64,000 bases of DNA, from assembly GCA_951406725.2 (NCBI GenBank), contig OX597830.1, positions 24,490,001-24,554,000 on the forward strand, read 5' to 3'. This document shows, piece by piece, positions 7,845 through 56,492 of the stretch. Numbering within the stretch: the first letter of the stretch is position 1; each line of letters opens with the position of its first letter. This DNA is from Octopus vulgaris (lineage: Eukaryota). Both the position numbers and the translations under genes were made by a program. Under the pieces are notes generated by a model. The model ran no database searches. It saw only the letters and a list, made by a program, of their open reading frames with translations, and was not told the DNA's origin.

Positions 7845-8065
7845 CTTTTCACTTTAGGCACAAGGTCTGAAATTTGGAGGCAGCAGGGGGTAGTCGATTA
7901 CATCGATCCCAGTGCATAACTGGTACTTATTTAATCGACCCCTTCCCCCCAAAGGATGAAAGCCAAAGTGGACCCCAGTGGAATTTGAACTCTGAACATA
8001 GCGGCAGATGAAATACCGCTAAGCATTTCGCCTGGCATTCTAACAGCACAGCCAACTCACCACCT
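7845..8065 (-). mobile_element. tRNA-derived SINE, type A
   Basis: Reverse complement matches the GAGTTCAAATTCC..GGTCGACTTTGCCTTTCATCC..GGGGTCGAT.AATTAAGTACCAG core seen at 44765-44982. Confidence 0.85.
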
Positions 8066-8117
8066 TTGTTTAAAATAGTGTACTGAAACAATACATATGA
8101 TCAATATCAAACAAGAG

Positions 8118-8320
8118 GGTGGCAAGCTAGCAGAACTGTTAGCATGCTGAGCAAAATGCTCAGCAGCATTTTCTGTTCTAAGTTCAAATTCTGCTGAGGT
8201 TGACTTCGCCTTCCATTATTTTGGGCTCAATGAAATAAGTACCCGTTGATCTCTGGGGATGATGTAACCAATGTAACTTCTCTGAAATTGCTGGCCTTGT
8301 GCCAAAATTTGAAACCAATA
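8118..8320 (+). mobile_element. tRNA-derived SINE, type A (diverged)
   Basis: GGTGGCAAGCTAGCAGAA...GTTCAAATTCTGCTGAGGTTGACTTCGCCTTCC...GGCCTTGTGCCAAAA. Confidence 0.8.
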
Positions 8321-8640: not shown

Positions 8641-8819
8641 GCTAAGTTGGTCTTCCTGAACCATTGTTACCCACCTTCTTTCTTCCCTTTTTCAAGGAGG
8701 CTTTCTCCTCTGTCTCCATCTCTCTCTTGAATGAGGTGGGGACGCTCCTTTGACCAACTGCTCCAAGACCCTACTCTGATCCTGGGGACAGTTTTTATAT
8801 GCCCTAGAAATAGTGTGAG

Positions 8820-9030
8820 ACAGGGTATCGTTGCTGAGTCTGATGTCTCTGTTCTGCGAACCAGTCAGCCAAGCGGTGTCCCGTTTTGATCAATATATAG
8901 AGGACAGAGCAGGAGATGCAGTAGATGACATTGCTAGAAGTGCAGGTGAAGGAGTCTGTGATATGATAGGGTCGATGATGGGTGCCTGTGAGGAGGGTGG
9001 TGTTGGAGAGGTAAGGGCAAGTGCAACATA
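8820..9030 (-). mobile_element. Penelope-like GIY-YIG endonuclease fragment
   Basis: Closely similar to 56870-57085; minus strand encodes a ...YIDQNG.RLADWFAE.. region. Confidence 0.75.
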
Positions 9031-11724: not shown

Positions 11725-12220
11725 GTACCTAAGAAGCTTGCCTTGTAACTATTTGCTTTCAGGTTTGATCCCACCGTGTAGTACTTTGGCCAAGTGTCCT
11801 CTGTAGCCTCTGGCCTTCCACTACCTTATAGATTGAATTTAGTTGACAGAAACTGTGGAAGCCTGTCTGTGTCTTTGTGGGTCTCCCCCAACCACTACTG
11901 TCACTTGCTGAAACATTAGCATGCCAGGCGAAATGTGTAGCTGTATTTCGTCTGCTGTTACATTCTGATTTCAAATTCTGAGGTCGACTTTGGCTTTCAT
12001 CCTTTCAGGGTCAATAAATTAAGTACCAGTCACGCACTAGGGTCGATGTTATCGATTTAATCAGTTTGTCTGTCCTTGTTTGTCTCCTGTGTTTAGCCCC
12101 TTGTGGGTAGTAAAGAAATAGGTAGTGCTGGTTTGTTTGTGTTCCTGTAACTTAGCAGTTTGGCAGCACTTAAATTGACCCTGGTTCTAATTTTCTTTAT
12201 ACTAAACTTTTCAAAGTCAC
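11725..12220 (+). mobile_element. Nested SINEs: type A (about 11900-12122) inserted in type B
   Basis: Type B head and body are interrupted by GAGGTCGACTTTGGCTTTCATCC...GCCCCTTGTGGGTAGTAAAGAAATA; type B resumes with GCTGGTTTGTTTG..GTAACTTAGCAGTTTGGCA. Confidence 0.75.
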
Positions 12221-18619: not shown

Positions 18620-21600
18620 GAACTAATTCCAAGTTTATCAAACTTGAAAGGAAAGTGTGTACTGTGATCGTTGTATTGACTATGGTTTGGGAAAATATAT
18701 TTGAATAAAATAACTAATTCCAAGCTTATCAAGCTTGAAAGGAAGGAGTGTAGTGTGATCGTTGTAATGCCCTCGATGTCTGAAAATATATTATTATAAA
18801 TGTTGTCCTTTTTTAAAAGACAACAAAGCTAAAGCATGCAGTGAAAAGCTGCTTGGCACAGATTCCACATAAAATCAGTTTTAACATTCTAGCTCACTTC
18901 TGTTTGCAACAGTGCTTGAAACCAAGGAGTGTAGTATGATCGTTGTAATGTCCTCGATGTCTGAAAATATATTATAATAAATGTTATCCTTTTTAAAAGA
19001 CAACAAAGCTAAAGCATGCAGAGTAAAGCTCCTTGGCAGAGATTCCCCATAAACTCAGTTTTAACATTCTAGCTCACTTCTGTTTGCAACAGTGCTTGAT
19101 AGCTAGGAGTGTAGTATGATCGTTCTAATGCACTCGATGTCTGAAAATATATTAGAATAAATGTTGTCCTTTTTAAAAGACAACACAAAGCATGCAGAGT
19201 AAAGCTGCTTTGTGCAGATTCCCTATAAACTTTGTCCTCACATTCTAGCTCACTTCTGTTTACAACATTGCTTGGAAGGAAGGAGTGGTGTGTGATCATT
19301 ATAATGCCCTCGATGTCTGAAAATATATTAGAATAAATGTTGTCCTTTTTAAAAGATAACAAAACTAAAGCATGCAGAGTAAAGCTGCTTTGTGCAGATT
19401 CCCTTTAAACTCTGTTCTAATATTCTAGCTCACTTCTGTTTACAACAGTGCTTGGAAGGAAGGAGTGTGTGTGATCATTATAATGTCCTCGATGTCTGAA
19501 AATATATTAGAATAAATGTTGTCCTTTTTAAAAGACAACAAAACTAAAGCATGCAGAGTAAAGCTGCTTGGTACAGATTCCCTATAAACTCTGTTCTAAC
19601 ATTCTAGCTCACTTCTATTTACAACAGTGCTTGGAAGGAAGGAGTGTTGTGTGATCATTATAATGCCCTCGATGTCTGAAAATATATTAGAATAAATGTT
19701 GTCCTTTTTAAAAGACAACAAAACTAAAGCATGCAGAGTAAGCGCTTGGTGATTCCCTTTAAACTCTGTTCTAGCTCACTTCTGTTTACAAAGTGTTGGA
19801 AGCTGCTTGTTGTCCTTTTAAAAGACAACAAAACTAAAGCACAGATTCCCTATAAACTCACTTCTGTTCAACAGTGCTTGGAAGAAGGAGTGTAGTATGA
19901 TCTATTCTTTTAGCAACAAAACTAAAGCATGCACTGCTTGGTACAGATTCCCTATAAACTCTGTTTACAACAGTGCTTGGAAGGAAGGAGTGTAGTATGA
20001 TCGTTGTAATGTCCTCGATGTCTGAAAATATATTAGAATAAATGTTGTCCTTTTTAAAAGACAACAAAACTAAAGCATGCAGAGTAAAGCTGCTTGGCAC
20101 AGATTCCCTATAAACTCTGTTCTCACATTCTAGCTCACTTCTGTTTACAACAGTGCTTGGAAGGAAGGAGTGTAGTATGATCGTTGTAATGTCCTCGATG
20201 TCTGAAAATATATTAGAATAAATGTTGTCCTTTTTAAAAGACAACAAAACTAAAGGATGCAGAGTAAAGCTGCTTGGCACAGATTCCCTATAAACTCTGT
20301 TCCCACATTCTAGCTCACTTCTGTTTACAACAGTGCTTGGAAGGAAGGAGTGTTGTGTGATCATTATAATGCCCTCGATGTCTGAAAATATATTAGAATA
20401 AATGTTGTCCTTTTTAAAAGACAACAAAACTAAAGCATGCAGAGTAAAGCTGCTTGGCACAGATTCCCTATAAACTCTGTTCTAACATTCTAGCTCACTT
20501 CTATTTACAACAGTGCTTGGAAGGAAGGAGTGGTGTGTGATCATTATAATGCCCTCGATGTCTGAAAATATATTAGAATAAATGTTGTCCTTTTTAAAAG
20601 ACAACAAAACTAAAGGATGCAGAGTAAATCTCCTTGGCACAGATTCCTTATAAACTCTGTTCTCACATTCTAGCTCACTTCTGTTTACAACAGTGCTTGG
20701 AAGGAAGGAGTGTTGTGTGATCATTATAATGCCCTCGATGTCTGAAAATATATTATTATAAATGTTGTCCTTTTTAAACAACAAAACTAAAGGATGCAAA
20801 GTAAAGCTGCTTGGTACAGATTCCCTATAAACTCTGTACTAACATTCTAGATCACTTCTATTTACAACAGTGCTTGGAAGGAAGGAGTGTTGTGTGATCA
20901 TTATAATGCCCTCGATGTCTGAAAATATATTAGAATAAATGTTGTCCTTTTTAAATGACAACAAAACTAAAGGATGCAGAGTAAAGCTGCTTGGCACAGA
21001 TTCCCTATAAACTCTGTTCCCACATTCTAGCTCACTTCTGTTTACAACAGTGCTTGGAAGGAAGGAGTGTTGTGTGATCATTATAATGCCCTCGATGTCT
21101 GAAAATATATTAGAATAAATGTTGTCCTTTTTAAAAGACAACAAAACTAAAGGATGCAGAGTAAATCTCCTTGGCACAGATTCCTTATAAACTCTGTTCT
21201 CACATTCTAGCTCACTTCTGTTTACAACAGTGCTTGGAAGGAAGGAGTGTTGTGTGATCTGATTATAATGCCCTCGATGTCTGAAAATATATTATTATAA
21301 ATGTTGTCCTTTTTAAACAACAACAAAACTAAAGGATGCAAAGTAAAGCTGCTTGGTACAGATTCCCTATAAACTCTGTTCTAACATTCTAGCTCACTTC
21401 TATTTACAACAGTGCTTGGAAGGAAGGAGTGTTGTGTGATCATTATAATGCCCTCGATGTCTGAAAAAATATTAGAATAAATGTTGTCCTTTTTAAATGA
21501 CAAGAAAACTAAAGGATGCAGAGTAAAGCTGCTTGGCACAGATTCCCTATAAACTCTGTTCCCACATTCTAGCTCACTTCTGTTTACAACAGTGCTTGGA

Positions 21601-22920
21601 AGGAAGGAGTGTTGTGTGATCATTATAATGCCCTCGATGTCTGAAAATATATTAGAATAAATGTTGTCCTTTTTAAAAGACAACAAAACTAAAGCATGCA
21701 GAGTAAAGCTGCTTGGTACAGATTCCCTTTAAACTCTGTTCTAATATTCTAGCTCACTTCTGTTTACAACAGTGCTTGGAAGGAAGGAGTGTAGTATGAT
21801 CGTTGTAATGTCCTCGTTGTCTGAAAATATATTAGAATAAATGTTGTCCTTTTTAAAAGACAACAAAACTAAAGCATGCAGAGTAAAGCTGCTTGGTACA
21901 GATTCCCTATAAACTCTGTTCTAACATTCTAGCGCACTTCTATTTACAACAGTGCTTGGAAGGAAGGAGTGTTGTGTGATCATTATAATGCCCTCGATGT
22001 CTGAAAATATATTAGAATAAATGTTGTCCTTTTTAAAAAACAAAACTAAAGGATGCAGAGTAAAGCTGCTTGGCACAGATTCCCTATAAACTCTGTTCTC
22101 ACATTCTAGCTCACTTCTATTTACAACAGTGCTTGGAAGGAAGGAGTGGTGTGTGATCATTATAATGCCCTCGATGTCTGAAAATATATTAGAATAAATG
22201 TTGTCCTTATTAAAAGACAACAAAACTAAAGCATGCATAGTAAATCTCCTTGGTACAGATTCCCTTTAAACTCTGTTCTCACATTCTAGCTCACTTCTGT
22301 TTACAACAGTGCTTGGAAGGAAGGAGTGTACTATGATCGTTGTAATGCCCTCGATGTCTGAAAATATATTAGAATAAATGTTGTCCTTATTAAAAGACAA
22401 CAAAGCTAAAGGATGCAGAGTAAATCTCCTTGGCACAGATTCCCTATAAACTCTGTTCTCACATTCTAGCTCACTTCTGTTTACAACAGTGCTTGGAAGG
22501 AAGGAGTGTTGTGTGATCATTATAATGCCCTCGATGTCTGAAAATATATTAGAATAAATGTTGTCCTTTTTAAAAGACAACAAAACTAAAGCATGCAGAG
22601 TAAAGCTGCTTGGTACAGATTCCCTATAAACTCTGTTCCCACATTCTAGCTCACTTCTGTTTACAACAGTGCTTGGAAGGAAGGAGTGTTGTGTGATCAT
22701 TATAATGCCCTCGATGTCTGAAAATATATTAGAATAAACGTTGTCCTTTTTAAAAGACAACAAAACTAAAGCATGCAGAGTAAATCTCCTTGGTACAGAT
22801 TCCCTTTCAACTCTGTTCTAATATTCTAGCTCACTTCTGTTTACAACAATGCTTGAAAGGAAGGAGTGTAGTATGATCGTTATAATGTCCTCGGTGTCTG
22901 AAAATATATTAGAATAAATT
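18620..22920. repeat. 180-bp tandem satellite, about 23 units, mariner-derived
   Basis: Unit AAAACTAAAGCATGCAGAGTAAAGCTGCTTGGCACAGATTCCCTATAAACTCTG...GTCTGAAAATATATTAGAATAAATGTTGTCC recurs every ~180 bp, with a scrambled patch at about 19740-19980. Confidence 0.97.
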
Positions 22921-22989: not shown

Positions 22990-24370
22990 TCCATGATTAC
23001 TCACAAGGAGTGAATATAGGAGACCAATACAAAAACTGGTGTCACAAACGGATCAATGAAATGAAGCTGATAGTCCCTACATCCGGGAGACTCCATTTAC
23101 CTTGTTTCACTTGTAACTTTTAAAAATTCTCTATATCATAATCATTCATAAGGTCTTTGACTCACCATCGTTTGCAGACACCTGGTGTCAATTCTTTTCT
23201 GCCAGTGCAACACATTGCTTCCATATTCTTTCGGTCCCACTGTGTATTTTGTCCACTATAACACATAGTGTGGGGGCGCCTTTTTACAGCCTGCTGTGAC
23301 TACTTTTATTCGTTTCGTCCAGCTGTTCACCTTTTTAAACAATTTGCCATTTCGTGCATTGTAAAGCACTATGCTCTTTTTTTCTTCAGTTTGGTAGCCG
23401 GGGAATTTGAGGCTCCACTATGATTGTGTTCATTTTGTTAATGTCAGGTGATGCAGGGTGAAATTTTGTGCCTGCAAGGGAAGAGTGGGACGAAATGGGT
23501 TCGGGCATTTGGGTGGGTGTGGGATGGGGGTCCTCGTTCAGTTTGTATCTTCCTCCTTTCTGCTCTTCCTTCCAATTTCCCATCCATTCTTGGTTAGGTT
23601 TCCTTTTGTACTTCCGTTGGTGGAGGTGCAGTTTTTTTTTTTTTACGGACACTGGCGCTAATGTGACATTTTTGGTCACATTTGTAACGAGGGTCCTGCC
23701 CTCCACTCTAGACCCTGAGCGTTATATCGTCGACCATTATGGTTTTTACCATCTCTTTGCCTGAATCACCATATTCAGGGTCGGTCTGCCCCTGCCAATT
23801 CTTGTAAGCAGTGCTAGTGGTTTGGAGGATGGCTATCTTATCCTCCATGCCCAGCAATATCGCTGTCACCAGCCAGGCCACATTTATCTTAGGGTTCTTC
23901 TACCCTCACTCTAGAAGCATGCCTTCCAAAGTATATGGGTAGAAGAATTACCTTATCAGTTTTCAGGAGGGTCGCCACGTGTCACCTGGCTGTGGTTCCA
24001 TCCCAGAACCGCACCTCTACCTTTCCGAATTTTCTCTTTCTGGCCAGGTGGGAAATTTCCTGATAGGTTTTATTGCCTTTTCATTTTGCCCGTTCGTCAT
24101 TAATTCTCTGGGCCTTAACAGAATAAGTTTTGTAGGTTATCATTCTGCTCTTGGCCCCCTGGGAGGAGATACTTTTACGTCGTGCTCCTCCCTATGAGTT
24201 GTCCAGCTCTTCTGTGCTCACTTCCTTGTTGTGGCCTTTGGCCACCGCCACAAATTTCATTCTTTCCTCCTTGTCCATCTCAACAATTGCTTCGGGTAAT
24301 TCGTACCAAGGGGTAACGCACCATCAAAACTGTCGTGAGGCAGCAAAAACAGATGTGAAACCACGCGACA
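22990..24370 (-). mobile_element. ORF1 (gag-like, CCHC knuckle)-only retroposon, copy 1, decayed
   Basis: Frameshift-corrected minus-strand translation ..FGKVEVRF..VILLPIYFGRHASRV..VAWLVTAILL..VEGR.P.YKCDQKCHISAQCP; ends in a SINE/LINE-like tail; no RT recognisable. Confidence 0.65.
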
Positions 24371-24956
24371 ATTAACCTTAATGACCTTCGTCATAACACG
24401 CAAAAACGTTCAGTACTCTCAGTATGTAATTCATAAGTGTAAAGCTTTCTTTATTACCCACAACATAGAGGGGACAATACAAGGTGAGGACAAAAAACGA
24501 ATGTAAGGGATGAATAAAATAATGGATGAAAAATGAAATGAAGCCGTTCGCCACCCCCACTTCCGAGCGACTTCATTTAACTTGTTAGTACTACTTTAAA
24601 ACAAGGTTAATCTTCATCTTCCTGAAGAATGTCTATATTATAATCATCGCGAAGATCACAGTGCTCTTTCCACTTTGGTAATTGGTTGGGGGTCAATTTT
24701 CTTGACCCAGTATTCAGTCCTTATCGTAGTTTTTTCTCGACAGTTGTTCCAAGTATGCTGCCACATAATGGTATCGCCATGGTAAATCGGAAAATGTTAC
24801 CGTATTTACTTGTCTCGTGTGTCTATTTAAGGGTAAAGTTCGATTCCAGGCAGTGACCCATGTGTCTAATGGTAAAGTTCGATTCCAGGCAGTGACCTGA
24901 ATAATAATAACGAAAAATACCTTAGGAATGAGAAGCCAGGTTTGAAATTTCCCCAC

Positions 24957-25003
24957 AACACCTGATGAAGGCTGGAAGTGTATATCAGCCGAAACGTTGT
25001 GTT
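24957..25003 (+). ncRNA. Minimal type I hammerhead ribozyme (Penelope-type)
   Basis: Stem I AACAC (24957-61)/GTGTT (24999-25003); CTGATGA core 24962-68; extra A; stem II GGCTG/CAGCC; GAAA 24991-94; palindromic ACGT stem III; predicted cleavage after GUU (24998). Confidence 0.8.
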
Positions 25004-25059
25004 AACAACAAACAAGATGACAAATATCCTCAAATGTAAATAAAGTCCTTTGTTCTGTC

Positions 25060-26380
25060 ATAAATAACAATGCAGTTTTTCTTAGTGTGGGAGAGAGGCA
25101 GTTTTTGGGCTCCTGTGTGCTTGTTTGTCATTGTGTCGGTGGGGTGTGGAGAGGGTTGGTGTCTGTAGGGTAGGGTGGGGTGTGGTTGGGAGTCGGGTAG
25201 GTGTGGGATGGGAGTCAACATTCACAGGGTTTCTTTTTTTTTCTCTTTTTCTACCAGCCTTTTCCCATTCATTTCCTTCATTCACCTTCTTTCTCGGCAC
25301 TTATATTGTCTTTCGGCGGCACTGATGGTGCGGCTTCTTCCCTGCTTAACGGGCATTTCTTTGGTCTTTATGGGCGGTGGACAGTCCGCTCTATGCGTTA
25401 GCCATTTTAGTAACAGTAAACTTATGACGTTGAACCTTCTACATTTGTCTTCTAAAGGATATGATTTTTTTTATTTTTACGTGTGCAGTATGTAGTAGCA
25501 CTTGTAGCATCGCGGTATTCTGCCCTCCACTCTGATCCTGAGTGTCACATCTATGGTGATGGTCTCCACTATGCTTTCGAGGTCTTCCGGGGCCACCTGG
25601 ATTATCATGTCCAAGCTCTGCTCTTACCAGTTCTTGTGCGCCATTCTTGTAGTTTGGACGGACACTTTTCTTCGTTGTCCAGCAGTATGGCAGCTACTAG
25701 CCAGGCTACAACAGTCTCAGTGGGTGTATCTCCTAATCTAAACCTGGAAGCACGTCTCCCAAGGTATATGGGTAGAAGTACCACTTCCATCTTTTAAGGG
25801 CATTCCCGAGTGTAGCCTGGCAGTAGCTACCTCAGGGAACTGCACTTCCACTGTACTAAAGTTTATTCCTCTGGCAAGGTAAGAAATCCCTTGCCAGATT
25901 TTTAAAGCTTTTTCAACTTACACAGTCGTTGTGGTGTATTTTCTTTTTGACAGATTATGTCCTGTATCTGACAGTTCTCTCTTAGGTTGCTTTTAAAACT
26001 TCTTTGGGAGCGGACACCTTTACACCGCACCTTTACATCGCACTCCTCCCTACGAAGCATGTTCTAATATTTGCTTAGTCCTGATAATTCAATTTCGTTG
26101 CTGTGGCTCTTGGTCACTGCTGCAACATTTCTTTCCTCTATTTGTTCCTCCATTGCATTCACTGCCCTCAGTAGCTCCTCCGTGGAAGGCGTAAGTTCTG
26201 AGGAGCTGAGGTTTTCATGTATCATCCTTGACACCAGTGCTACCTCCTTTGAAGAAGGGGAAACAGTGCTACCCCCTTCGAAGAAGGAGAAAGCATCAAC
26301 AAACTGCTGTAAGACAGTAAAACAAAATGTAAAACAGTGTTTAAAAACCACGAAACCAACATTCAACAAATTTTGACTTG
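25060..26380 (-). mobile_element. ORF1-only retroposon, copy 2 (diverged paralogue of copy 1)
   Basis: ORF 25605..25790 MEVVLLPIYLGRRASRFR...VVAWLVAAILL and downstream RVEGRIPRCYKC match copy 1. Confidence 0.65.
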
Positions 26381-26514
26381 CATGACTTCAACTGTAGTAC
26401 ATAAGAGTAAGTAATCCATAAATGTAAAGAATAGTAGTGATTGATTGTTGCTTTATTTGGTGCAAACCTTGCAGAAATGCAAGGTAAAAGAAAAATTATA
26501 TTGGACATAACCAT

Positions 26515-26870
26515 AGGTGTAGGAGTGGCCGTGTGGTAAGTAGCTTGCTTACCAACCACATGGTTCTGGGTTCAGTCACACTGCATGGCACCTTGGGCAA
26601 GTGGCTTCTCTAGCCTTGGATCGACCAAAGCTTTGAGTAGATTTGGTAGACGGAAGCTGAAACAAGCCCGTCGTGTGTGTGTGTTTTTGTTTGTTTCTCC
26701 CCACTATCATTGCTTGACAACCAATGCTGGTGTTTGTCTCCGTAACTTAGCAGTTTGGCAAAAGAGGCCAATAAAATAAGTACTAGGCTTTCAAAGAATG
26801 TCCTGGGTGTTGATTTGTTCGAGTAAAGGTGATGCTCCATTGTAGCCAGTCAAATGACTGAAACAAAATA
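26515..26870 (+). mobile_element. tRNA-derived SINE, type B, near full length
   Basis: GGTGTAGGAGTGGCCGTGTGGTAAGTAGCTTGC..GGGTTCAGTC..CACCTTGGGCAAGTG..tail AATGACTGAAACAAAA. Confidence 0.9.
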
Positions 26871-32249: not shown

Positions 32250-34466
32250 TAACTGAAAATATATATTTCCTCATTGAGAATAATTTGAACCCCTGTTATG
32301 CCGGAATTTTTATTCCCTAACAAATAAAATTATATATATTACGGAAATGTACTTGCATAGCAAGTGACCTGATCTGTGATCGTGTGCTGGAACGAAAACA
32401 ATTGCAGCATGGAAGGTGTTTATATGCCATTTAAGAAACCTGCAAAAACCGTTAGATTCACTTCAACATTTAAATTTAATTTGTCAAAATATTTTTGGCG
32501 CTTTGAGACTGCAACCTGTTCATTGACAAAATTCTGTAGTGACACCTTGGGCAATTGATTTCTACAATAGTCTTAGGTCAACTAGTCTTGAGTACATTTG
32601 GTAGATGGAAACTGAAAGAAGCCCATTATGTGTAGACCCTTGAAATGTGAAGCTTAAAAATGAGCCTCACTGTCAATGTTCATTTCTAGCCTTCTGTGGA
32701 AAAATATCTGGCTATGGGGAAATATTGACTTTATTTAAACACAGTGGAGGGTTGGTGACTGGAAAGGCACCTGGCTGTAGAAAATCTACCTCAATAAAAT
32801 CCAAACCCATGCAAGCATGGAAAAGTGGTTTCCTGCTTCTTCTGGGTTGGCTTTTGCAGTTTCCTAATGGAAATACAAATCTGTGTTTCATTTTTTCCTC
32901 CATTTTATAAATTGATATTTTGTCACTAATTGATGGCAAAAGCTGACTCGGTCAATCAGTTGCACTGATTAACCATTCTAGTTTATTGAACACTCTCCTT
33001 TTAGGACTTGCTATGATCTGTTATCAAGCAAGTTTGTGAATGACAATTTTTCCAAAGATAGCACCATACCACTTTATTAGATGACCTGACGGAACCTAAA
33101 ATGAAACCTTATTGGCTACAAGCTTATCAAAATGTAAAATGCTACTTCATATTGATATTTAAAATTGGTGAAATCAGCATACAGGAATGCTATTTATTTG
33201 GGTTATGTTTTAACATCAAATGTTACCAAGGTTGACTTAGGTCTTTCATCCCTTTGGGATTGACCCCAGTAGACAACTGGTACATATTTTATCAATGTAA
33301 TCTACTTCCCATTTCTTCATTTGTCTTTGCTATATCACTTGTGGATGTTCAACTCTGGAGCAAATTTCCCTCCAGGCTCTGCAAGATGACCTTATGCATG
33401 TCAACTCTGAGACTGCAGTCCTGTCCTGCAGTCCTGTCCTGCAGAAGTTGATATACATGATATGCATCTGACCACTCAACTTAAATGTCTCTATTGGGTA
33501 CACAATGACAGGATGATATTTGCGAAAAGTGACCTGCGAATTTTAGCCATCTGGCTGACCGGTGGTCAAGATCCACGTAGTAACTTGACATGTAGGCAGC
33601 ATAAAAAGTAAAGGCTTTGTGCAGAAGTCAAATGTATGTGTTGTCTAGTAATTTTCTACTCTAGGCACAAGGCTCAAAATTTCGGGGGAGGGGCCCAGTT
33701 GATTAGTAATTATTGTTGGGCCACTGAGAGCCCAGTATTCAGGACTGTTGAGCAGAAAAGATTCTACTGTAGCAGGAAGCAGACAGTTTTACATTAAGTT
33801 TTGATACTTTCCAAATTTTTCATAGCTAGTTGGATGCTTCACAAATGTGAAGTGACTCCTGGTTTGTCAGGAATTTGAGCATCTGTGAGTGTGATGCCAC
33901 CTGCAAAATCAAAATTAGTGAAACTTTGTGGGGACAGTTATGCCTACTTCAGATACCCTAGCATACTGCAGTACGTAGTCTGTGACTATAAGGGAAAGGA
34001 AAGAAGCTTAGGTGTCCTCATTGGTGCATAAGAAATAAATTTTGCAGTTTGCATGGATAGAGCAGATACCATTTGCTCTCTGTCCAGTGGACAGTCAATA
34101 GCTTTGATATTCAGATATCTTTACTGAGATGGTTTCAGCGAGTAACTTATCTGTCGAGCTCCATCAGATGTCAAGCTGACCAGAATCATTCCTGTTCTGA
34201 AAAAGGAAAACCTAAGAGAACACTCCTCATATTGTGGCATTAGCCAGGTGTCCTGCTCAACCAACCTTTTCAATCTTACTTGTTCACTTTGATCTGAGTA
34301 ATATTTCAGTAGGGCCTCAGAAACGATTAAGGTTTTTGCAAAGGCTGCCTCTTTTTTTTTTTTTTTTTTTTTTTTTAATTGCTGGCATTGAGCCCATTTT
34401 AGAATCCTTTATTAGAGGCTGAAGAGCCCTAATCTTTTTGAATGGAACATTGATCTAAAGAAATGT

Positions 34467-35960
34467 CTGCTTTTGAAAGTATGTAAGAGTCCTAGCAAGA
34501 CCACTGCAATTCCTCTTTCAGAGCTTCCTTGCAACTGGCAAACTTCCAAGAAAACTGAAGGAAGGTAAAATATGCCCTATTCATAAAGGAGGTAGCAGAG
34601 TGGAGGCCAAGAACTACAGACCTATCTCTCTGACCTCGCACATCAGCAAGGTCATGGAAGGAATAGTCAGAAGGAAACTAATCACCTTCCTGGAAGAAAA
34701 TGACTTACTGCCTGACACCCAACATGGTTTCCGACCAGGAAGAAGCTGCTTAACTCAGCTCCTACAACACTATGACCGGGTGCTGAAACGACTGCTCAAC
34801 CACTCAAATGTGGAAGTCATATATCTTGACTTTGCAAAGGCCTTTGATAAAGTCGATCATGGAATGATATGTCACAAACTGCGTGATCTTGGCATAGTTG
34901 GAAAATTGGGAGAATGGCTTCATGACTTTCTGAAGGATAGAAGTCAGGTGGTAGTAGCCAATGGGGCCACTTCCAGTAACATGCAAATAGTGAGCGGTGT
35001 TCTGCAAGGAACTGTCTTGGGACCACTACTGTTCATAATGGCCCTCTCAGACATGCCCTCAGCCACACAGCCACGATCACAAGTTATGCAGATGATGCAA
35101 AAGTTTCACAGGCAATACAGAACCCTGAAGACACTAAGCAGGAGGGATTGCAATCCCAGAGGCACAATCAGTGCGAGACCTGGGTATTTACATGAGTGAT
35201 GATGCAATCTTTCATGTGCATGTTGCTAAATTGGCAATGAAATGTAGGTGGCTGACCGGATGGATTCTTAGAACCTTTAGAACAAGAGACCAGGAAACCA
35301 TGATGGTCCTCTGGAGGACACTTGTCCTAAGCCACTTTGACTATTGCTCTCAGCTACGGTCACCATCCAGTGTCAAGTTAATCACAGAACTTGAGGCAAT
35401 CCAACGAAGCTACACGAAGAAGATAGCCTCTGTGCAGCATATAAGCTATTGGGAAAGACTCAAGAGATTGAGACTCTATTCCTTAGAGCGTAAGCGAGAA
35501 AGATATGCCATAATATACATCTGGAAGATCCTAGAAGGACTTCTCCCAAACTTTGGCATCAAGAGTTACACAAATGCCAGAACTGGGCACCACTGCATAG
35601 TGCCAAGGACTCCAAATTTGCCATCAAGATGTAGGACGAGATACTGTGATAGCCTGGGCTTCCGAGGCCCACAGCTCTTCAATATCCTCCCGAAGAACCT
35701 AAGAGACCTGCATGGGGTGGATGCAGATGTCTTTAAAATAAAACTGGATCTCTTCTTATCAGGTGACCCAGATGAACCAACTTCATGGCAGGGGGTGCAG
35801 ATGAGGGCAGCTGCATCGAACTCTTTCATGCACCAAATGGCAATTGCTAAAAAGCATTTCGTGAAGTAAAATCATGTAGCAACACCAAATGGCGGTGCCC
35901 CAGCATGGCCACAGCTTGTGAGCTGAAACTAGATAAAAATTTAAAAAATAAAAAAATAAA
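34467..35960 (+). mobile_element. CR1-like LINE ORF2 RT and 3' end, frameshifted with an internal deletion
   Basis: ORFs 34600..35199 (NYRPISLTS, QHGFRPGRSC, YLDFAKAFDKVDH, QGTVLGPLLF) and 35171..35869; YADD in a shifted frame near 35085; A-rich tail. Confidence 0.95.
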
Positions 35961-37109: not shown

Positions 37110-38185
37110 TTTATGTGGTCTGATCAATAAATATCCAGACTATTGCCATAGTAATGAAGTTAAAGCATGCAGTGAACCTTGAACTCTGCCATGTATGTGC
37201 ACTGTTTTAATGTTCTAGCACACTTCTGCTGTTTACAGCAGTGCTTGGAAGAAACTTGTGTAGTGTATGATCATTGCATTGAGCAGAGAATATGCATCAA
37301 ATTTTGCTAAAAGCTTGGTGATACCTCAAAAGTGCTGGCCTTGTGAGAAAATCAAAATTTATCAGAGGCTGGAGAAAGCTAATATTTTCTGGATTGGACA
37401 TCCATGCAAAGAAACTCTTGCTTTTGAAAAGGAATATACATAAACCAAGGCCCTTTCAGTTTGTCCTTTCACTAAATTAGTTATATATCTCTGTAGATCT
37501 GATATACCCTTATTTAGTTTCCTTAGTTGTGCATAAATGAGTCATCTAGATAATGAATTTTATTTTACATGTTCTGATCAATAAGTATCTAGACTATTGC
37601 CATAGTAACAAAGTTAAAGCACACAGTGAACCTTGAACTCTGCTGTGCATATGCACTGCTTTAACGTTCTAGCTCCCTTCTGCTATTTACAGCAGTGCTT
37701 GAGAGGAACATGTGTAGTGTATGATCATTGCATTAACCATGACAGAAAATTGAGCAGAGAATATGCATCAAATTTTGTCAAAAGCTTGGTGATACCTGCT
37801 CAGAGGCCTACGCAAAGCTTTCAAAGTTTTCATCAATCTCAACACAAGATCTTGTGCAACTGAAACTGGAGTCTTCTTGTTCAGCTGAAAGTTTTGGTAC
37901 AAACTTGGCGTGCATCTCATACCCAAATCTTCAGTGATAATGAACTGAACTGTAGCTAATCTGCACATCCTCTGATAACTCATGGATTACCCCTGAGCAG
38001 GTATTGCCATGACAACTTTCTGTCATGGTTAATACGATGATCTCTTGCTACACACCTTCCTTCCAAGCACTGCTGTAAACAGTGGAAGTAAGCTAGAATG
38101 TTAGAACTTAGCGTGCATGCACAGCAGAATTCAAGGTCAATCTGTGCTAAATGGCTTCATTTTGTGTGCTTCAGCTTCATTACAA
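37110..38185. mobile_element. mariner-derived element with long inverted termini and a duplicated left arm
   Basis: Left arms TGATCAATAA.TATC.AGACTATTGCCATAG at about 37120 and 37575, leading into a decayed transposase start (..SREYASNF..); 38010-38183 is the reverse complement of the arm. Confidence 0.8.
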
Positions 38186-39674: not shown

Positions 39675-42390
39675 TCTGATCTTAGTTGGACTGTCTGTGA
39701 GGGAGCCATCCTTTTGGAGGAGGGGGTCCTATCTTGTAGTGCACTGAGACTGTTTCTTTCGCATAATGAAAGAAGGCCTTTGGGTTTGATTTAATGTTTT
39801 TTATAACACAGGCTTCTTTGTCTGCTTTTTCCTTCACATAGGATTGTTGCAGCCTTTTTTCGATCTCCATCAGTGTTGTTTTTAGGCGGGACGTTTCACT
39901 ACTTTTGGGATGTTGGTTGAGACGATTTGCAACTTTCGTCCGTTGTCTCATGAAGATCTTCCTGTCTCTTGGAATCTTGCTCCTATTTGTTTTGGCCTTG
40001 TGCTCTGGAACATATTTCTGGCATACGGCTTGCACAGAAGACATGAAACATTCTAGTTTCATGTCAATGTCTGGTGTGGAGAGACATTCCAGCCAGTCCT
40101 CTCTGAGCATCTCTTTTTGGATCAATTTCCAGTCTTTGTGGAAGTTCAGATTGGAGAGATTTCGGGTGCTTCCTTTAGGCTGTATGTCTCTGGTTACTTT
40201 TGGCCCAAACATAGACAGCTCTATAATGTTATGATCCGAAACTGATGTCGGTGTCACTTTCACATCATGAATGAGGTCCATATTGTTCATGAAGCAGAGA
40301 TCCAGAATGTTATTCGCCCTAGTTGGTTTGAGTACAACTTGCTCCATGAATAAGGCATTGGTGAGGTTGAGCAGGGACTCCACGTGTACTTGCTTGCAAT
40401 GATTCATTCCTGAGAGTATGTGACCTTCGGGCCATTTGACGTTGGGGAAGCTGAAATCACCCATAAGAAATATGGTCACGTGGTGTTCCAGATTCATGAG
40501 GATTTTTAATTCTTGTGAGGCAAGTTTGAAGATTGCCTATGTGATTTGGGGCATCCGGTGGGCAATATGTATTGCATATGACTATATTATGTCTTATGTA
40601 TACAATTAGTGTCACATACCGAATTTGAGTATGTCATTAAGACCTGGGGTGTGAGGTCATCTCGGATGTATACAGCAACTCCACCATGGCCCCTTTCCCT
40701 TCTGTCTGTTTGCAGTATGGCATAGTTCGATATGTGTACTTCTGCGTCCTCTATATCAGGGTTGAGGTGAGTTTCCACAAGTGCTATGCATAGGGCTTGA
40801 TTGCATGCAGTAAGATCTCTCAGGAAAGAAATTTTGTTTCTATTTTGATGCAATGGGCCCCCAATATTTAGTAAAAGTATTGGGGTGACGGCTGTGCAGA
40901 CGTTAGGGGAGGCAATCCTGTGTCTGTTGACTGTGGTGGTCTTGCATAGTGGTGAGCTGGGTTCCTTCTCTGTGCTTGGTGTAGCCAGGTTAGTTGCTGG
41001 ACAATTCTTTGCGCCATGCATAAAAAAGACTCTTGCTCAGCTGCTGCGTTGTGCAGAACATCTGAGGAGCGCACTTCCTGGGAGACATTTCTTGTGTTCC
41101 CTCGATAAAGTTTTTCTCTTTGAGTCCCCTGAAGTTCTGGCGGGGTGTCGGGTGGGCGAACCGGCAGTTTTTGCCATCCTCACCATGCCAATATTTGCCC
41201 TGCAGGTAGAACTTACAGGTTCTTCGGTACCTTCCAGATTTCTTCTTTCCTGAAGTGTACTCGGTGGCATTGGATCCTCCATGGGGTTCTCTGCTATTTG
41301 TGTGGTGGGTTGGGGTTTCAGCTTTGGTTGTTTTGCCTTTTTCCTCCTTATTTTTGTTTTCGGTCCTTTTTTCTTCTGTTTTTCTAATTTTTCAATTCTT
41401 CCTAGGACCACTGGTACAGGGGTCTTCCGGTTTCTGCTCCCTTGGCTCCCCTATCCTTCACTACCTGGTCGTTCACTGGGGTAGGTGATCCATTTTCCTG
41501 AGGAACCCCTGGATCACATAGACTTCCAGCTTCCTTCTCTTTTTCGTCCTCTTCATCCTCATCAGCTTTGCCACAATAATTTTCAATTATGTTATCCAGT
41601 GTTTTGATGTGTGGTCTTATAAGCATGTAAGACCGGATAAACTCACTTTTCTTCCGCTCTATCTGGTCAATGGTTCTATGAAATCCATTGTTTTTTAGTG
41701 CAGCCGTGATGATGTTGTTCGGTGGATTGCCACTAGCAATCATCCATGCTCTCAGCAGAAGATTTAACTCTTTCTTTTCCCACTTTGGTGCCATCTTCGT
41801 TTTGAGGTCCAGAGGGGGAGTAGAGGCTAGAGAGGTAATGATGGATAGAGAGGTAGAGACGAAGAAACACAGAGGGGGGGAAATAGGGAAAGAGAGAGGG
41901 AGATAGGAAGGAAAGAGAGGTGCTATGAAATAAATCACGAGGGTGATAGGAGGAAAGCAAGGGGGCGTGGTGTGTTAAGATAGAGGAAGGTAGGGGAGGG
42001 GGAGAGGAGGGAAATAGGAGAGACAGTGAAGGAGAAGAGGGAAGAGAAAGAGGCAGAATGAAGGAGAGGAGGGAAAGAGAAACAGGGAGAGGATAGCAAG
42101 AGACAGTGAAAGAGACAGGATGAAGGATTTGAGGGAGAGACGGAGTGAGAAGAATGGGCGAATGAGAAGTATATGAGAGGGTGAGGTGACGAGAGGAGAG
42201 GTAGATGTGAGATGGAAAGGAAAGAGAAATGAGAGAGGAGGGGAGATGAGAAAAAGAGTAAGATATGTAAGAGAGAGGGAAAGGGTAAGCGTAAAGAGAG
42301 ATAAAGGAAGGGAGAAAGGAGCTGGAAGTGGGGGAATATATGTAAGGGAGGAGAGAGGAGGTAGAAGAAAGTGAGGAAATGAAGGAATTA
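39675..42390 (-). mobile_element. CR1-like LINE 5' half: 5' UTR, ORF1 and APE endonuclease
   Basis: APE motifs LLNIGG, ALVETHL, DR..RGHGGVAVY, GDFSFP, PTRANNILDL, SDHNII (ORFs 40587..41021 and 39682..40497). ORF1 ATG at 41794. The CT-rich 5' UTR appears as a GA tract on the + strand. Confidence 0.9.
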
Positions 42391-44764: not shown

Positions 44765-44982
44765 AGGCAGCAAGCTGGCAGAAATGTTAGCACAACGGGT
44801 GAAATGCTTAGTGATATTTCGTCTATCTTTACAATCTGAGTTCAAATTCCGCCAAGTTCAACTTTGCCTTTCATCCTTTCAGGGTTGACAAATTAAGTAC
44901 CAGCTGTTGTGTACTGAGGTCGATCTAATCAACTGGCCCCCTTTCCCAAAATTTTGGGCCTTGTGCCTTGAGTAGAAAAGAA
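44765..44982 (+). mobile_element. tRNA-derived SINE, type A
   Basis: GGCAGCAAGCTGGCAGAAATGTTAGC..GAGTTCAAATTCCGCC..CTTTGCCTTTCATCCTTTC..GGGCCTTGTGCC. Confidence 0.9.
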
Positions 44983-45899
44983 TGTAGTCTATGGGTTAAA
45001 ATGCTTTTATGTTAATAAAACACCTCCTCATAAACATATGCTGGTGAATGAGCATGTGAATAAATATTTGTACTTAAAGCTTATTAGATGAGTTATGTTC
45101 TGTTGTAGGATATGTTGACAGCTGGTAGGCTGGGAACTACGAGAACATTCTGGTTCCTGCTCTCATACTGCTGACTGTATGGAATGTTATTAGCAGTGAC
45201 CATGTTGGCTAGCAGTAATTAGATATGCTTGATAATATTGCAACATACTAATAATTGGTTGAAGAGAATGAGGTATTGGGTGACTGGCCAATGTATTTTG
45301 TTCAAACTTTGTAGATTGTGTTTTTAGATGAGGTACATACATTAAGCTTACATTACTAAAAATAGCTTCCAATTCTTTTCCACTGAGAAGTTAATACAAA
45401 ATATTTCCAATTGTAAACAGCATTTGTCCAATTGATAGGCCATGTCCAGATAAGTTAGAATACTGATTAGCCACCTAAATTATATAACAGTATCAAATTA
45501 GTTTCAAACAAAAAATGAGTTCTTAATCTAGATACGTAATGTTTGAAAAGATACAAGCATGGTTTAACAAGTTTTGGGGACAACCAATCTTCATGGTGCC
45601 TTGCTTTGACAAAATTAGATTCCAATTCCTCTTTGAAATTAGGGTTACCATAGCTTAGCCAAAATCTTGATTTAAATATCTAGACAGAAACTGTGTAGAA
45701 GCCTTCCAAAGTACTGCCCTGGTCTTGGATGCAAAACTTCATGTCACTCAGTTTAATGTCATCATTTGGTCTTTGATTACCTTTTACTGAATATCAAATT
45801 GAAGGGATTCAGATCAGGTTTCCGGCTTCAGAACTTTCACATTTATGAAGACTCTGAAGAAATCCAGGAGTATTGTTCTTCCTCTTCAAAACTATTGAA

Positions 45900-48329: not shown

Positions 48330-48660
48330 TAGGTGTGGGCTTGCTTCCCAACCACATGGCGTGACACAGCTGGATTCACTCCCACTGTGTCACACCTTGA
48401 GCAAGTGTCTTCTATAACCTCAAGCCAACCAAATCCTTGAGTGGATTTGGTAATTAGAAACTGAAAGAAGCCCATCGTGTGTCTATACGTGTGATCTTTG
48501 TATCTGCCTGTCCCCCACCACCACTTGATATCAGTGGAGTGTTTACATTCTCATAACTTAGTGGTTTGGCAAAAGATTGCCAAAACAAAAGTACTAGGGG
48601 TCAACTCATTCGATTGTTCAAGGTGGTGACCCAGCATGGCTACTGTCTAATGACGAGTAA
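48330..48660 (+). mobile_element. tRNA-derived SINE, type B
   Basis: CTTGCTTCCCAACCACATGG..CACCTTGAGCAAGTGTC..GGTGGTGACCCAGCATGGC tail. Confidence 0.8.
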
Positions 48661-49829: not shown

Positions 49830-50160
49830 TACTTTTGTTTCATTCAATTAACTGTGGTCATGCTGGAGCACTCTTTAGTCAAACAAATTGACCCCAGAAC
49901 TTATTTTTTTGTAAGCCTAGTACTTATTCTATCAGTTTCTTTGAACTCTTAAGTTACGAGGATGTAAACACACCAGCATCGGTTGTCAAGCAATGTTAGA
50001 GGACACACACACGACAGGCTTCTTTCAGTTTCCATCTCCCAAATCCACCCACAAGACTATGGTTGCCCCGAGGCTATAGCAGAAGACACTTGCCCAAGGT
50101 GCCATGCAGTGGGACCGAACCCAGAATTATGTGGTTGGTAAGTAAGCTACTTACCACCTT
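49830..50160 (-). mobile_element. tRNA-derived SINE, type B
   Basis: Reverse complement of 26515-26870-type sequence (ACACTTGCCCAAGGTGCCATGCAGTGGGACCGAACCC). Confidence 0.85.
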
Positions 50161-50897: not shown

Positions 50898-51760
50898 CTG
50901 TGACTATTGACTTGGTCAATACTTCCCTTTGATTATAGTGGGTGGTCCCACTAATGCCCTCATTAGCAACATGCATGAACTGCAGGCACTAAAGTCTAAT
51001 CCTGGAGTGACTCCCACTGCCTCACCAAGGGAACATGTATACCACCTATTGTCAAATCTGGTGCTTTTGTCTATATTTATTATTAATAGCCCTAATCATT
51101 ATACAGGGATCCTGTGGGCAGGATCTCCATGCTGAGAGCTAATCTTTCAGCATATTGTATGTAACATAGCCGTCCTGCTGAATAGTCATCAGAATGACTT
51201 GTCCTTAATGCTCACGGCATCTAGCACTGCACTCACAGGCCAGCACCAGGCACCACAGGCACCAATTGGGAGTCCATGCACTTCTACCAGCTGATCAAAC
51301 TCTTGCAACAGTAATGGTATGAGCAGCTGATACTTGCGCACTTTCTTGAGATGCCTCTTTTAAGGCATCTCCTTGCTCCAACGTTGACTACTACCTTCTA
51401 TTAGGTCACGTTGACTACTACTCAGGACGACTAAATACTATCAACCTAGAGCCTCATTAATGTAAGAAGACTCCACACTGATTATAATCAGCAGCCTCTT
51501 TCACTATCAGGCTACAGATGCTATGTCTAATAAGTCATGGCCCTTAAGAACGCCACAAACTCCACTGATGTGAGAGATCATCTCTGCCCCTACTCTATGC
51601 CTTGGACACATGGAGTGCCCTTAGCCACCACGTGTCAAGGTCTCTCAGGTGGGAAATACATTGGAGCGCATCTTGAGAAGACTCAAGAAGCACTTCTCTG
51701 TAATCCCATCTGGTCTTCTGATCCAATTATTGCCAATTGTATCCCCATGAAACACTGCCT
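50898..51760 (-). mobile_element. R2 non-LTR retrotransposon, 5'-truncated (zinc knuckle, RLE endonuclease, 3' UTR)
   Basis: Frameshift-corrected minus-strand translation FHGDTIGNNWIRRP..LKMRSNVFPT*ETLTRG..CPR..AEMISHISGVC..IRH..VVVNVT..KKVRKYQ..VHGLPIGACGAW; the 3' end abuts the 28S target. Confidence 0.88.
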
Positions 51761-54700: not shown

Positions 54701-56492
54701 TTAATGCAGCGAGGTCATCTGCAAAATCAGTCTTAAATTTTTTTTCCCTGTTAACCGCTGAATCCCTTAACCTACAGTTGCTTTTTTTCTGGATGCAATA
54801 CAAAGGGGATCAGCTATAAGTACCCCCCTCCCGCCGTCAGATGCAGCATAGGTTTGTTGTTCTTAGTGTATACCACATCACTTGTGAATGTTGTCTCCAG
54901 CTCAATAGCAAAAATCTCCCAGACTTTGAAAGATTTTGCCAACTCTGATACAATACACAGTTGCACTGACAAGGTGATCTGTTCAACAAAATGGGGTTGG
55001 TGTATTTTACCTGTCTTTGTCTACTTTTTATACTTACTATATGGTTAAGTATCTCCCAAATAAGTCACTATATGGTTAAGTATCTTTTTATACTTACTAT
55101 ATGGTTAAGTATATCCCAAAGGCTATGCACAGAAGTTGTGTAGTGACTGAATGTTGGTCTTTTATGGTGGGCCAACAACAGAGCCATAGAGCAGAATGGA
55201 ATCGTTTCAGGTCATGTGACTATTGTGATCCTTTTGAAATTTTGTTTTTGTATGTGTGCCAAGCCATCCTCGCTCATCGAACCTGATGGTTGAATAAGCC
55301 AGACTTCCATAGAGACCCTTTCAGATTTGTCTTTTACATAAGCACTATAATTGCATATTCCCTTCCATTAAGATCACCACTGTTGAAACCTTCAGTTGAA
55401 TCAACTCCAGTCAGTTGTTGGTATTTTTATGTCCATGCATGCTTTTTTCTGTGAATACTGTTCATGTATTCAGACTAGGATCCATCTGAGGGTAACTCTT
55501 CCTTGTAAGAATAGCTTACATAGATATAGGTGCTATCATGTTGGGTAATGCATACTACAGTCAGTACTCCAAGATCCAGTTGTCAGCCACTTTCAGTACA
55601 TTGTTTCATTGCAAGAATATCAGATGAGGTCCTGGTTGATTGTCTGTTCATCTTGAACTGTCACCAGAGGGTTCTACTTAAAGGCTTACTTGACAAGTCT
55701 GCTCATCAGTGGTCTTACGACATGCCCCAGCCATCTTCATCAGTGCCTGCAACTGGGGGAGAGCAAATTTTGATCTGCTCTTTGACCCCCACTTGACAGC
55801 TAGTATTTCCTGGAAGCATTCGTTGTCAATCAACAATGTTCAGTTTTCAGGTGCTGTTTTTCTCAGCTTATCTCACCATTATGATGTTCTTCATGTCAGA
55901 TTTTCAAGGTAGAGAACCTGTTACTTAGCAGTTCTCAAATTTTGTTTGAGGCTCACTCCTTGAATCTACTGATGTGAAATAACTTTACTGTGAATGCTTT
56001 TATGAGTGACTCTTGATGCTTGGACCAGTCTTCAGCATTAAAACTCATAGCAGTATAGTTGAAGTAAAGTGCACATCTCCTGTATATATTCTCTCTTTAT
56101 TTACATGAAAATGACTTATATTGAGAGGTAATTGATTTGCATTCATGCAACCAATAACAGCAGTGAGTTTGTATGTACACATCAGGTTGTCTTCACTCGT
56201 TAAACCTGATGGTTCAATAAGCTGGACTTCTGTAGTAAACTCTTAACGTTAGCTGTCTATATTGCATCCATTTCTATACTAAACATATTGTATAATCACA
56301 TTCCATTCCACTAAGATCACCACTACAGACATTCAGTTGAATCAACTCCAGTCAGTTGTTGGTACATATACGTCCATGCATGCCTTTTGCTGTGGACACA
56401 ATGCTCCGTTTATTCAGGTAAGGATTCATCTGAGGGTAACTCTTTCTTGTATTACATGTTTAAAAACATCATGGCAATGGCCCTTCTTCATG

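What the first reader, a model, noticed from the sequence alone, without database searches (positions are those of the whole stretch)
24815..25045. Pol III box motifs fused to an intact hammerhead: SINE-like retrozyme candidate
Seen: a 39-bp-period duplication GGTAAAGTTCGATTCCAGGCAGTGACC (24832-58, 24871-97) containing a tRNA B-box-like GTTCGATTCC. The second copy is preceded by an A-box-like TGTCTAATGG. About 60 nt downstream lies a complete minimal type I hammerhead (24957-25003) with palindromic stem III. Established: minimal hammerheads with palindromic stem III occur in Penelope-like LTRs and can cleave as dimers; Pol III plus hammerhead repeats are known from schistosomes (Sm-alpha). Inference: a non-autonomous tRNA-headed, ribozyme-processed element, possibly mobilised by the PLEs also present here.
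Basis: partly seen in the sequence, partly recalled or inferred. Interest (0 to 1): 0.72.

Follow-up and report, generated by a model that had tools for sequence, protein, structure and literature searches.

The report
Octopus tRNA-headed repeat with Penelope hammerhead
This is a single, likely front-truncated copy of a very abundant short repeat, likely from an octopus, that joins a tRNA-like promoter box to a minimal hammerhead-ribozyme motif of the kind carried by Penelope jumping genes; it likely spreads as a SINE-like passenger of Penelope enzymes rather than as a self-cutting circular RNA.

Summary
The motifs are real. The hammerhead (24957-25003) is the only descriptor hit in the window; 0 of 100 shuffles give one. 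It has the loopless Penelope-type minimal form, and the same core lies just behind GIY-YIG ORFs in 7 of 17 metagenome loci. 24876-25045 belongs to a repeat with summed contig depth about 2-5x10^4 times single-copy in four runs. An antisense copy in an Octopus bimaculoides gene model links B box, AAT tract and hammerhead 5' arm at a second locus. It continues past the B box with a tail that fits tRNA landmarks (43 of 2000 random pieces fit as well). The window copy breaks off at the B box, so the reported A box (4 nt from the B box) and the duplication look local. Nothing shows ribozyme processing, tandem units or circles, and the copy keeps both sides of the cut site. Best reading: a tRNA-headed SINE-like element whose tail is a Penelope terminal-repeat piece, likely mobilised by a Penelope protein. 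The partner element, full head and expression were not obtained.

The parts
24876..25045 (+). One copy of a very high-copy short interspersed repeat, 5'-truncated at the B box; 3' end approximate
   Evidence: Bins 24818-25091 have summed contig depth 2.5e5-1.3e6 against 26-266 and 71-953 in the adjacent bins; low-copy contigs end at 24903/24904 and restart at 25000/25006. The window diverges from the second copy P0002 just 5' of the B box.
24876..24899 (+). 3' end of a tRNA-like head with B box (24877-86), duplicate copy 2
   Evidence: Sequence; the same segment read antisense in P0002; bin arithmetic puts much of the high depth at or before 24904.
24818..24859 (+). Duplicate copy 1 (flank plus B-box segment): likely a local tandem duplication of the insertion's 5' junction
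   Evidence: nhmmer matches element positions 1-24 at 24837-60; upstream letters fit 3 of 6 tRNA landmarks; both copies are crossed by one low-copy contig in X1 and one in X3.
24863..24872 (+).
   Evidence: 2 mismatches to consensus, 4 nt from the B box, equally good matches nearby, and 0 of 6 tRNA landmarks upstream of B box 2.
24900..24910 (+). (AAT)n tract joining head and body; longer in the second copy
   Evidence: run of 9 Ile in P0002 against 3 in the window frame.
24911..24956 (+). Body between the AAT tract and the hammerhead; highest sampled depth of the element (24935)
   Evidence: table 3; matched in P0002.
24957..25003 (+). Minimal type I hammerhead motif of Penelope terminal-repeat type; predicted cut 24998/24999 after GUU
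   Evidence: Most laid contigs read G at 24957, which still pairs with 25003 (table 3).
24999..25045 (+). AC-rich then AT-rich 3' segment downstream of the predicted cut site; no poly(A) or simple-repeat tail; first run of 4 or more T at 25076-80
   Evidence: loose-end consensus behind 25020 follows it (table 7); T-run scan.

Best explanation
The stretch is one copy, likely 5'-truncated, of a very abundant short repeat, likely of an octopus, built of a tRNA-like B-box segment, an AAT tract and a Penelope-type minimal hammerhead motif; it is likely a Pol III-transcribed SINE-like element that a Penelope-like reverse transcriptase/GIY-YIG protein would copy from uncleaved RNA. Shown: the motif, the high depth, and B box-to-hammerhead linkage at two loci. 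Inferred: (1) full-length copies carry a complete tRNA-derived A+B promoter; (2) the 3' half comes from a Penelope terminal repeat, possibly one that landed in the AAT tail of a tRNA retrocopy, since a Penelope endonuclease prefers ATT sites (PMC11167929); (3) this piece would be the protein's recognition and initiation site, with the loopless hammerhead largely silent in monomers and able to cut only as a dimer or with protein help; (4) this copy was cut short at the B box and its 5' junction was later duplicated locally, so it is probably a dead copy.
For: Unique, non-chance hammerhead. Same core and stem II in 17 metagenome loci; a GIY-YIG-region profile hits upstream of it in 7 of 17, 4 of them profile seeds (Pfam GIY-YIG and RVT_1 hits below cut-off for L007/L010). 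Stem I, which the search pattern did not fix, covaries: 20 cells changed on both sides against 8.1 in shuffles, 0 of 500 shuffles as high, slid controls lower (13 of the 17 loci plus the window, related sequences). Depth ratio 2-5x10^4 in four runs from three coded organisms. P0002, named by its source as an Octopus bimaculoides protein, carries an antisense copy from the hammerhead 5' arm through the B box (E 1.9e-6, 28 of 39 identical). Its 10 further residues plus a presumed stop allow 6 of 6 tRNA landmark letters and 4 of 5 anticodon-stem pairs at canonical spacing; 43 of 2000 random window pieces do as well. No run of 4 or more T inside the element. A purified Poseidon protein inserts uncleaved RNA and starts reverse transcription downstream of the hammerhead, which cuts only with protein (PMC11167929); the copy here keeps both sides of the cut site. 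O. vulgaris has 30 recently active Penelope families (PMC13282606).
Against: No autonomous partner sharing this terminal sequence was found: the metagenome loci match only over the hammerhead itself and the window's own Penelope relic differs. The head rests on one back-translated peptide of one gene model, scored best-case with a test designed after seeing it and with a recalled expectation; it stops short of the A box. Summed depth at 24910 is about a third of that at 24935, so many laid pieces do not reach the head side. Depth is not a copy number. The candidate 6-bp target duplication is not significant (18% in the null). Rfam finds neither hammerhead nor tRNA.
Confidence: 0.55

Rival explanations
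1. Recurrent composite: ordinary solo Penelope terminal-repeat fragments insert preferentially into (AAT)n tracts, including the tails of an abundant short tRNA-derived repeat, so head and hammerhead are often neighbours but do not move as one unit.
For: Penelope endonuclease prefers ATT/AT-rich DNA (PMC11167929); most minimal hammerheads in animal genomes are solo pieces of truncated PLEs (PMC4209133); depth differs threefold along the element; only two linked loci were seen.
Against: Both loci show the same order and orientation with only the AAT tract between the parts; the high depth extends to the B-box side; the window copy begins inside the head, as expected if head and tail were copied together from the 3' end.
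Confidence: 0.2
2. Sm-alpha-like retrozyme: tandem master copies are transcribed by Pol III, cut by dimeric hammerheads into units or circles, and reverse-transcribed.
For: Same promoter-then-hammerhead order as the schistosome SINE-like elements (review PMC6765202); the ACGU palindrome allows a double-hammerhead fold (-19.7 kcal/mol).
Against: Solo copy with no tandem unit or second copy in 64 kb; a unit cut at 24998/24999 would be permuted, but this copy runs head to 3' end across the site; the dimer fold is less stable than two monomers (-21.4) or the best co-fold (-30.2); minimal hammerheads cleave poorly in vitro.
Confidence: 0.13
3. Ordinary LINE-mobilised tRNA SINE that captured a Penelope terminal-repeat piece as an inert middle body; the true LINE-type tail lies further 3' or was lost here.
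For: SINE bodies often derive from other retroelements (PMC5786205, passages on LINE-derived bodies); RT and endonuclease LINE relics are present in the window.
Against: High depth ends within about 50-90 nt of the cut site and no poly(A) or simple-repeat tail follows; the motif is intact in a copy that differs from the family majority at several other places.
Confidence: 0.1

Closest known systems
Minimal hammerheads (min-HHR) in Penelope-like element terminal repeats (Cervera and De la Pena 2014, PMC4209133; parts 1-2 of 4 read)
   Same: Type I, 5-bp stem I, long stem II with G-C first pair, extra base after A9, palindromic positions 15.2/16.2, no stem III loop, mostly solo in genomes.
   Different: Here the motif lies about 70 nt behind a tRNA-type B box, with no RT/endonuclease ORF upstream.
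Sm-alpha / Sj-alpha SINE-like elements of schistosomes (seen only through passages of PMC6765202 and PMC8490949; Ferbeyre 1998 and Laha 2000 not seen)
   Same: Pol III-type promoter followed by a type I hammerhead in a non-coding repeat.
   Different: Those carry canonical, active hammerheads, often in tandem; this has the loopless Penelope type, is solo at this locus and shows no sequence link to them (not aligned here).
Animal non-LTR retrozymes (PMC7229834, passages; Li et al. 2026 preprint 10.64898/2026.07.22.740005, part 1 of 5 and passages)
   Same: Short non-coding, type I hammerhead, proposed to use Penelope machinery.
   Different: Defined as tandem repeats giving circular RNA; no tRNA head is mentioned in the text searched ('trna' 0 hits in the preprint; none of the 8 passages shown from PMC7229834 describes one).
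Non-autonomous Penelope-like elements such as MRC1 of Chlamydomonas (PMC8557442, passages) and the Poseidon PAc mechanism (PMC11167929, parts 1-2 of 4)
   Same: Non-coding passengers that share 3' sequence with a PLE; insertion from uncleaved RNA.
   Different: No tRNA promoter described in the passages seen; here the partner is unidentified.
tRNA-derived SINEs of octopus (OK, OR1, OR2 of Ohshima and Okada 1994: paper not seen, names partly recalled; tRNA-Core and tRNA-Deu in PMC8967140 and PMC13282606, passages)
   Same: Abundant tRNA-headed short repeats in the same genus.
   Different: No ribozyme is mentioned ('ribozyme' 0 hits in PMC8967140 main text and in the PMC13282606 supplement). 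The family may already sit, unremarked, among the many unclassified SINE consensus sequences.

Membership tests
PLE-type minimal type I hammerhead | Core CUGANGA...GAAA with NUH triplet, stems I and II | tested here: met
   GUU triplet; 0 of 100 shuffles
PLE-type minimal type I hammerhead | Extra base after position 9, G10.1-C11.1 pair, palindromic 15.2/16.2, no stem III loop | tested here: met
   against the description
PLE-type minimal type I hammerhead | Covariation within the family | tested here: inconclusive
   Stem I covaries among metagenome relatives; within the octopus family only one pair-preserving change is visible, with 706 variant rows not shown
PLE-type minimal type I hammerhead | Self-cleavage as dimer or with protein | not testable with these tools
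   Energy model only
tRNA-derived SINE | B box | tested here: met
tRNA-derived SINE | A box at tRNA spacing in this copy | tested here: not met
   4-nt gap, 0 of 6 and 3 of 6 landmarks; no tRNA by ARAGORN or Rfam
tRNA-derived SINE | Complete tRNA-derived head in the family | tested here: inconclusive
   One back-translated copy fits T-arm-to-anticodon-arm landmarks, 43 of 2000 in the null; the A box is not reached
tRNA-derived SINE | Short, non-coding, high-copy, interspersed | tested here: met
   (depth is a rough proxy)
tRNA-derived SINE | LINE-derived or poly(A)/simple-repeat 3' tail | tested here: not met
   3' segment is AC/AT-rich with no such tail; no match to LINE relics in the window; LINE libraries not searched
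tRNA-derived SINE | Target-site duplication | tested here: inconclusive
   6-bp candidate at 24834 and 25041, null 18%
tRNA-derived SINE | Pol III transcription | not testable with these tools
   Only the absence of internal T4 runs was checked
Non-LTR retrozyme | Tandem units each with a hammerhead | tested here: not met
   Solo in the window; other loci of the genome not available
Non-LTR retrozyme | Unit-length linear and circular RNA | not testable with these tools
   Only DNA-type contigs were laid
Non-autonomous Penelope-like element | 3' sequence shared with an autonomous PLE of the same genome | tested here: inconclusive
   No match to the window's PLE relic; metagenome PLEs match the hammerhead only; host assembly not available
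Non-autonomous Penelope-like element | PLE insertion signature (partial tandems, inverted 5' piece, 30-40-bp tail) | tested here: inconclusive
   Single copy with a short local 5' duplication; no inverted piece seen

The most novel reading that the evidence does not exclude
A true SINE-Penelope partnership: a Pol III, tRNA-promoter SINE whose mobilisation tail is a Penelope terminal repeat with its hammerhead, amplified to tens of thousands of copies in octopuses, extending the SINE/LINE rule to telomerase-related Penelope retroelements and making it one of the largest hammerhead families in an animal genome.
Probability: 0.45. Interest if true: 0.75.

Novelty: new variant of a known kind. Interest (0 to 1): 0.55.

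Why it matters
SINEs are known as parasites of LINEs, and non-autonomous Penelope passengers are known mainly as tandem retrozymes or ORF-less derivatives. A dispersed tRNA-headed element ending in a Penelope terminal repeat would show that Penelope proteins act in trans on Pol III RNA. Its many copy ends would map the minimal cis signal and the reverse-transcription start site, and would test whether the hammerhead is kept for cleavage or as a protein-binding fold, an open question after the PAc in vitro work. It would also reclassify a sizeable octopus repeat. This particular copy is likely dead.

Tried and rejected
Rfam scans: no hammerhead or tRNA match; NBR2, IsrR and IRE_I hits are below gathering scores and taken as chance. 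ARAGORN: 0 genes. Exact-motif scans for other family copies: 0 hits in metagenome, genome and viral contigs. One other antisense frame found nothing in two word-indexed protein searches, and its one HMMER hit P0001 is an unrelated repetitive ORF. No RNA holder was listed among 24 runs; this says nothing on expression. A custom covariance model found no second copy in the window (next best E 0.059; the window copy is in the model). The 6-bp target duplication was rejected as not significant. The A box was rejected. A GIY-YIG profile from metagenome PLEs and Pfam missed the window's PLE relic; only the feature search named it (0.93, GIY-YIG in 15% and 41% of members of two clusters). One low-depth contig of organism C ends at 24858, a weak hint that the duplication is polymorphic; not used. 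Ten paper searches listed no description of an octopus hammerhead SINE or a Penelope-mobilised tRNA SINE. The library lacks most subscription papers, and Repbase/Dfam could not be searched. Five look-ups in earlier scan findings gave no look-alike of this sequence.

Full report
OBSERVATION. The duplication, both B-box-like strings, the A-box-like string and the hammerhead are at the stated coordinates. The hammerhead has stem I 24957-61/24999-25003, core CUGAUGA 24962-68, an extra A at 24969, a 6-bp stem II with a 9-nt loop, GAAA 24991-94, a loopless ACGU palindrome and a GUU triplet, with the cut predicted at 24998/24999. A descriptor found it as the only hit on both strands of the 64 kb, and none in 100 dinucleotide shuffles. 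Rfam does not detect it. The isolated 71-mer folds no better than shuffles (z -0.61), and in wider context only stem II is stable, as expected for a minimal motif that cannot close stem III alone.

TYPE OF HAMMERHEAD. A pattern fixing only the core and five pairs of stem II returned 17 metagenome loci and none in genome or viral contigs. With one unpaired cleavage-site base, 12 of 17 form at least 3 stem I pairs (null 5.5%); 3 more pair without that base and 2 fail. By eye these are about seven families, so the counts are not independent. On 13 of the 17 plus the window (four near-duplicates left out), stem I shows 20 cells changed on both sides against 8.1 in shuffles, and all six slid controls score lower. 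A profile of four upstream ORF ends hits 7 of 17 loci on the same strand upstream of the motif; four are seeds. Two of those ORFs give GIY-YIG matches just under the Pfam cut-off. The anatomy matches the min-HHR description in PMC4209133. So the motif is of Penelope terminal-repeat type. None of the 17 loci matches the window element outside the hammerhead.

COPY NUMBER AND HOST. Contigs of four public runs from three coded organisms pile up on 24818-25091 with summed depth 2.5e5-1.3e6, against tens to hundreds in the neighbouring bins. The ratio to single-copy contig depth is 2-5x10^4. The tool warns that this is no copy number, so I read it as an order of magnitude. Low-copy contigs end at 24903/24904 and resume at 25000/25006. 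In all four runs the total of the 24818-24954 bin exceeds what 24905-24954 could hold even at the highest sampled depth, so the B-box side is itself high-copy unless unsampled positions are deeper still. Searching an antisense frame of the element (43 aa) found one protein, P0002, named by UniRef as Octopus bimaculoides (E 1.9e-6; 28 of 39 identical). The window is therefore likely from an octopus; the species was not determined.

HEAD AND LINKAGE. P0002's C-terminus is a second copy read backwards: hammerhead 5' arm, body, a longer AAT tract, the B box, then ten more residues. The window departs from P0002 right at the B-box 5' edge in both duplicates. Placing the B-box G at tRNA position 53, the extra residues allow all six landmark letters tested (Y32, U33, R37, A/C38, R46, Y48) and four of five anticodon-stem pairs; 43 of 2000 random stop-free window pieces do as well. 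This is best-case scoring of a degenerate back-translation, designed after seeing the peptide. I also recall, from no call, that this octopus repeat begins with a full tRNA-like head; that is a lead only. The window's own upstream letters fit 3 of 6 and 0 of 6 landmarks. The named A box has two mismatches, lies 4 nt from the B box and is mostly duplicated flank, since the duplicated unit starts near 24818 and 24861. The copy is thus likely 5'-truncated, with a later local duplication of its junction. A 6-bp candidate target duplication is not significant (18%).

MECHANISM. Shown: motif, abundance, linkage at two loci, solo state, and no internal T4 run, with the first at 25076. Inferred: full-length copies are Pol III transcripts; the 3' half is a Penelope terminal-repeat piece; a Penelope protein copies the uncleaved RNA. 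The copy retains about 47 nt beyond the cut site, so its template was not cut there. In PMC11167929 the purified Poseidon protein nicks ATT/AT-rich DNA, starts reverse transcription in an AC-rich site downstream of the hammerhead and uses unprocessed RNA, and the hammerhead cuts only with protein. The element has an AAT tract at its internal junction and an AC-rich stretch after the cut site; that parallel is suggestive, not tested. The double-hammerhead fold is possible but not favoured (-19.7 against -21.4 and -30.2 kcal/mol). The partner is unknown: the window's Penelope relic has a different, decayed motif. O. vulgaris has 190 Penelope-like families covering 6.83% of the genome, and 30 recently active Penelope families (PMC13282606).

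RIVALS. Recurrent insertion of solo Penelope ends into the AAT tails of a separate tRNA repeat (0.2) fits the uneven depth and the target preference. A tandem, circle-forming retrozyme (0.13) lacks any support at this locus. A LINE-driven SINE with an inert Penelope body (0.1) lacks a tail. Two unchecked earlier scan notes from other genomes bear on this: one reports a tRNA-bearing repeat with Penelope-type insertion patterns (e1-7810660), the other solo Penelope end fragments at very high copy (e1-7858679). They are leads, not evidence.

COMPARISON AND NOVELTY. It works like a SINE and carries a member of the PLE min-HHR class. It fails the tandem test for retrozymes here and the LINE-tail test for standard SINEs. 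Sm-alpha has the same promoter-hammerhead order but a canonical, active ribozyme (seen via PMC6765202 and PMC8490949 passages). Ten literature searches listed no octopus hammerhead SINE and no Penelope-mobilised tRNA SINE. Ohshima and Okada 1994, Albertin 2015, Lunse 2017, Ferbeyre 1998, Repbase and Dfam were not seen, and the supplements of the 2026 retrozyme preprint were not seen either; the family may already be catalogued as an unclassified SINE. Other papers consulted as passages only: PMC10886601, PMC6962438, PMC4758252, PMC8557442, PMC5786205, PMC8967140.

VERDICT. Observation partly confirmed; interpretation partly supported; new variant of a known kind; interest 0.55. The boldest reading, a genuine SINE-Penelope partnership, has probability about 0.45 and would merit 0.75.

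Noticed in passing
window 26510-26870; related pieces at 32540-32633, 48339-48598, 49833-50157: A second, even deeper repeat (summed depth up to 3e7) with a tRNA-like start; resembles a known octopus SINE by recall only.
   Followed up: no
window 23400-24445 and 25060-26430, minus strand: Two diverged tandem units (66% over 306 nt) with decayed reading frames ending in a CCHC-like zinc-knuckle motif; no Pfam match. The hammerhead element sits between them.
   Followed up: partly
window 56466-57160 (-) and 8806-9024: Decayed GIY-YIG-like Penelope 3' fragments. The first is followed by a worn hammerhead-like motif at about 56492-56466 with a different stem II; similar short stretches lie near 53630 and 62135.
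   Followed up: partly
window 18733-22919: 180-bp satellite, 23.4 copies; many units give a sub-threshold IRE_I match (18.8-20.2 bits against 34), and a 60-bp piece recurs inverted at 38048-38107.
   Followed up: no
window 51700-62000: Cluster of at least eight overlapping, 70-80% identical decayed fragments that look like LINE reverse-transcriptase 3' ends by eye.
   Followed up: no
window 34477-35869 (+) and 39682-41036 (-): LINE relics: RVT_1 (E 3.7e-21) and Exo_endo_phos_2 (E 8.4e-07).
   Followed up: partly
window 7898-8267, 11904-12055, 44775-45002: Imperfect inverted-repeat element with dispersed copies, MITE-like.
   Followed up: no
L010 and L011: L010 is a tandem Penelope ORF-terminal repeat-ORF junction; L011 has two near-identical hammerheads on opposite strands. 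L003, L004 and L008 pair stem I directly after the ACGU palindrome with no unpaired cleavage-site base.
   Followed up: partly
P0002, residues 146-194: The C-terminus of an Octopus bimaculoides gene model named Nucleoporin NUP42 is an antisense translation of this repeat: exonisation or a gene-prediction error.
   Followed up: partly
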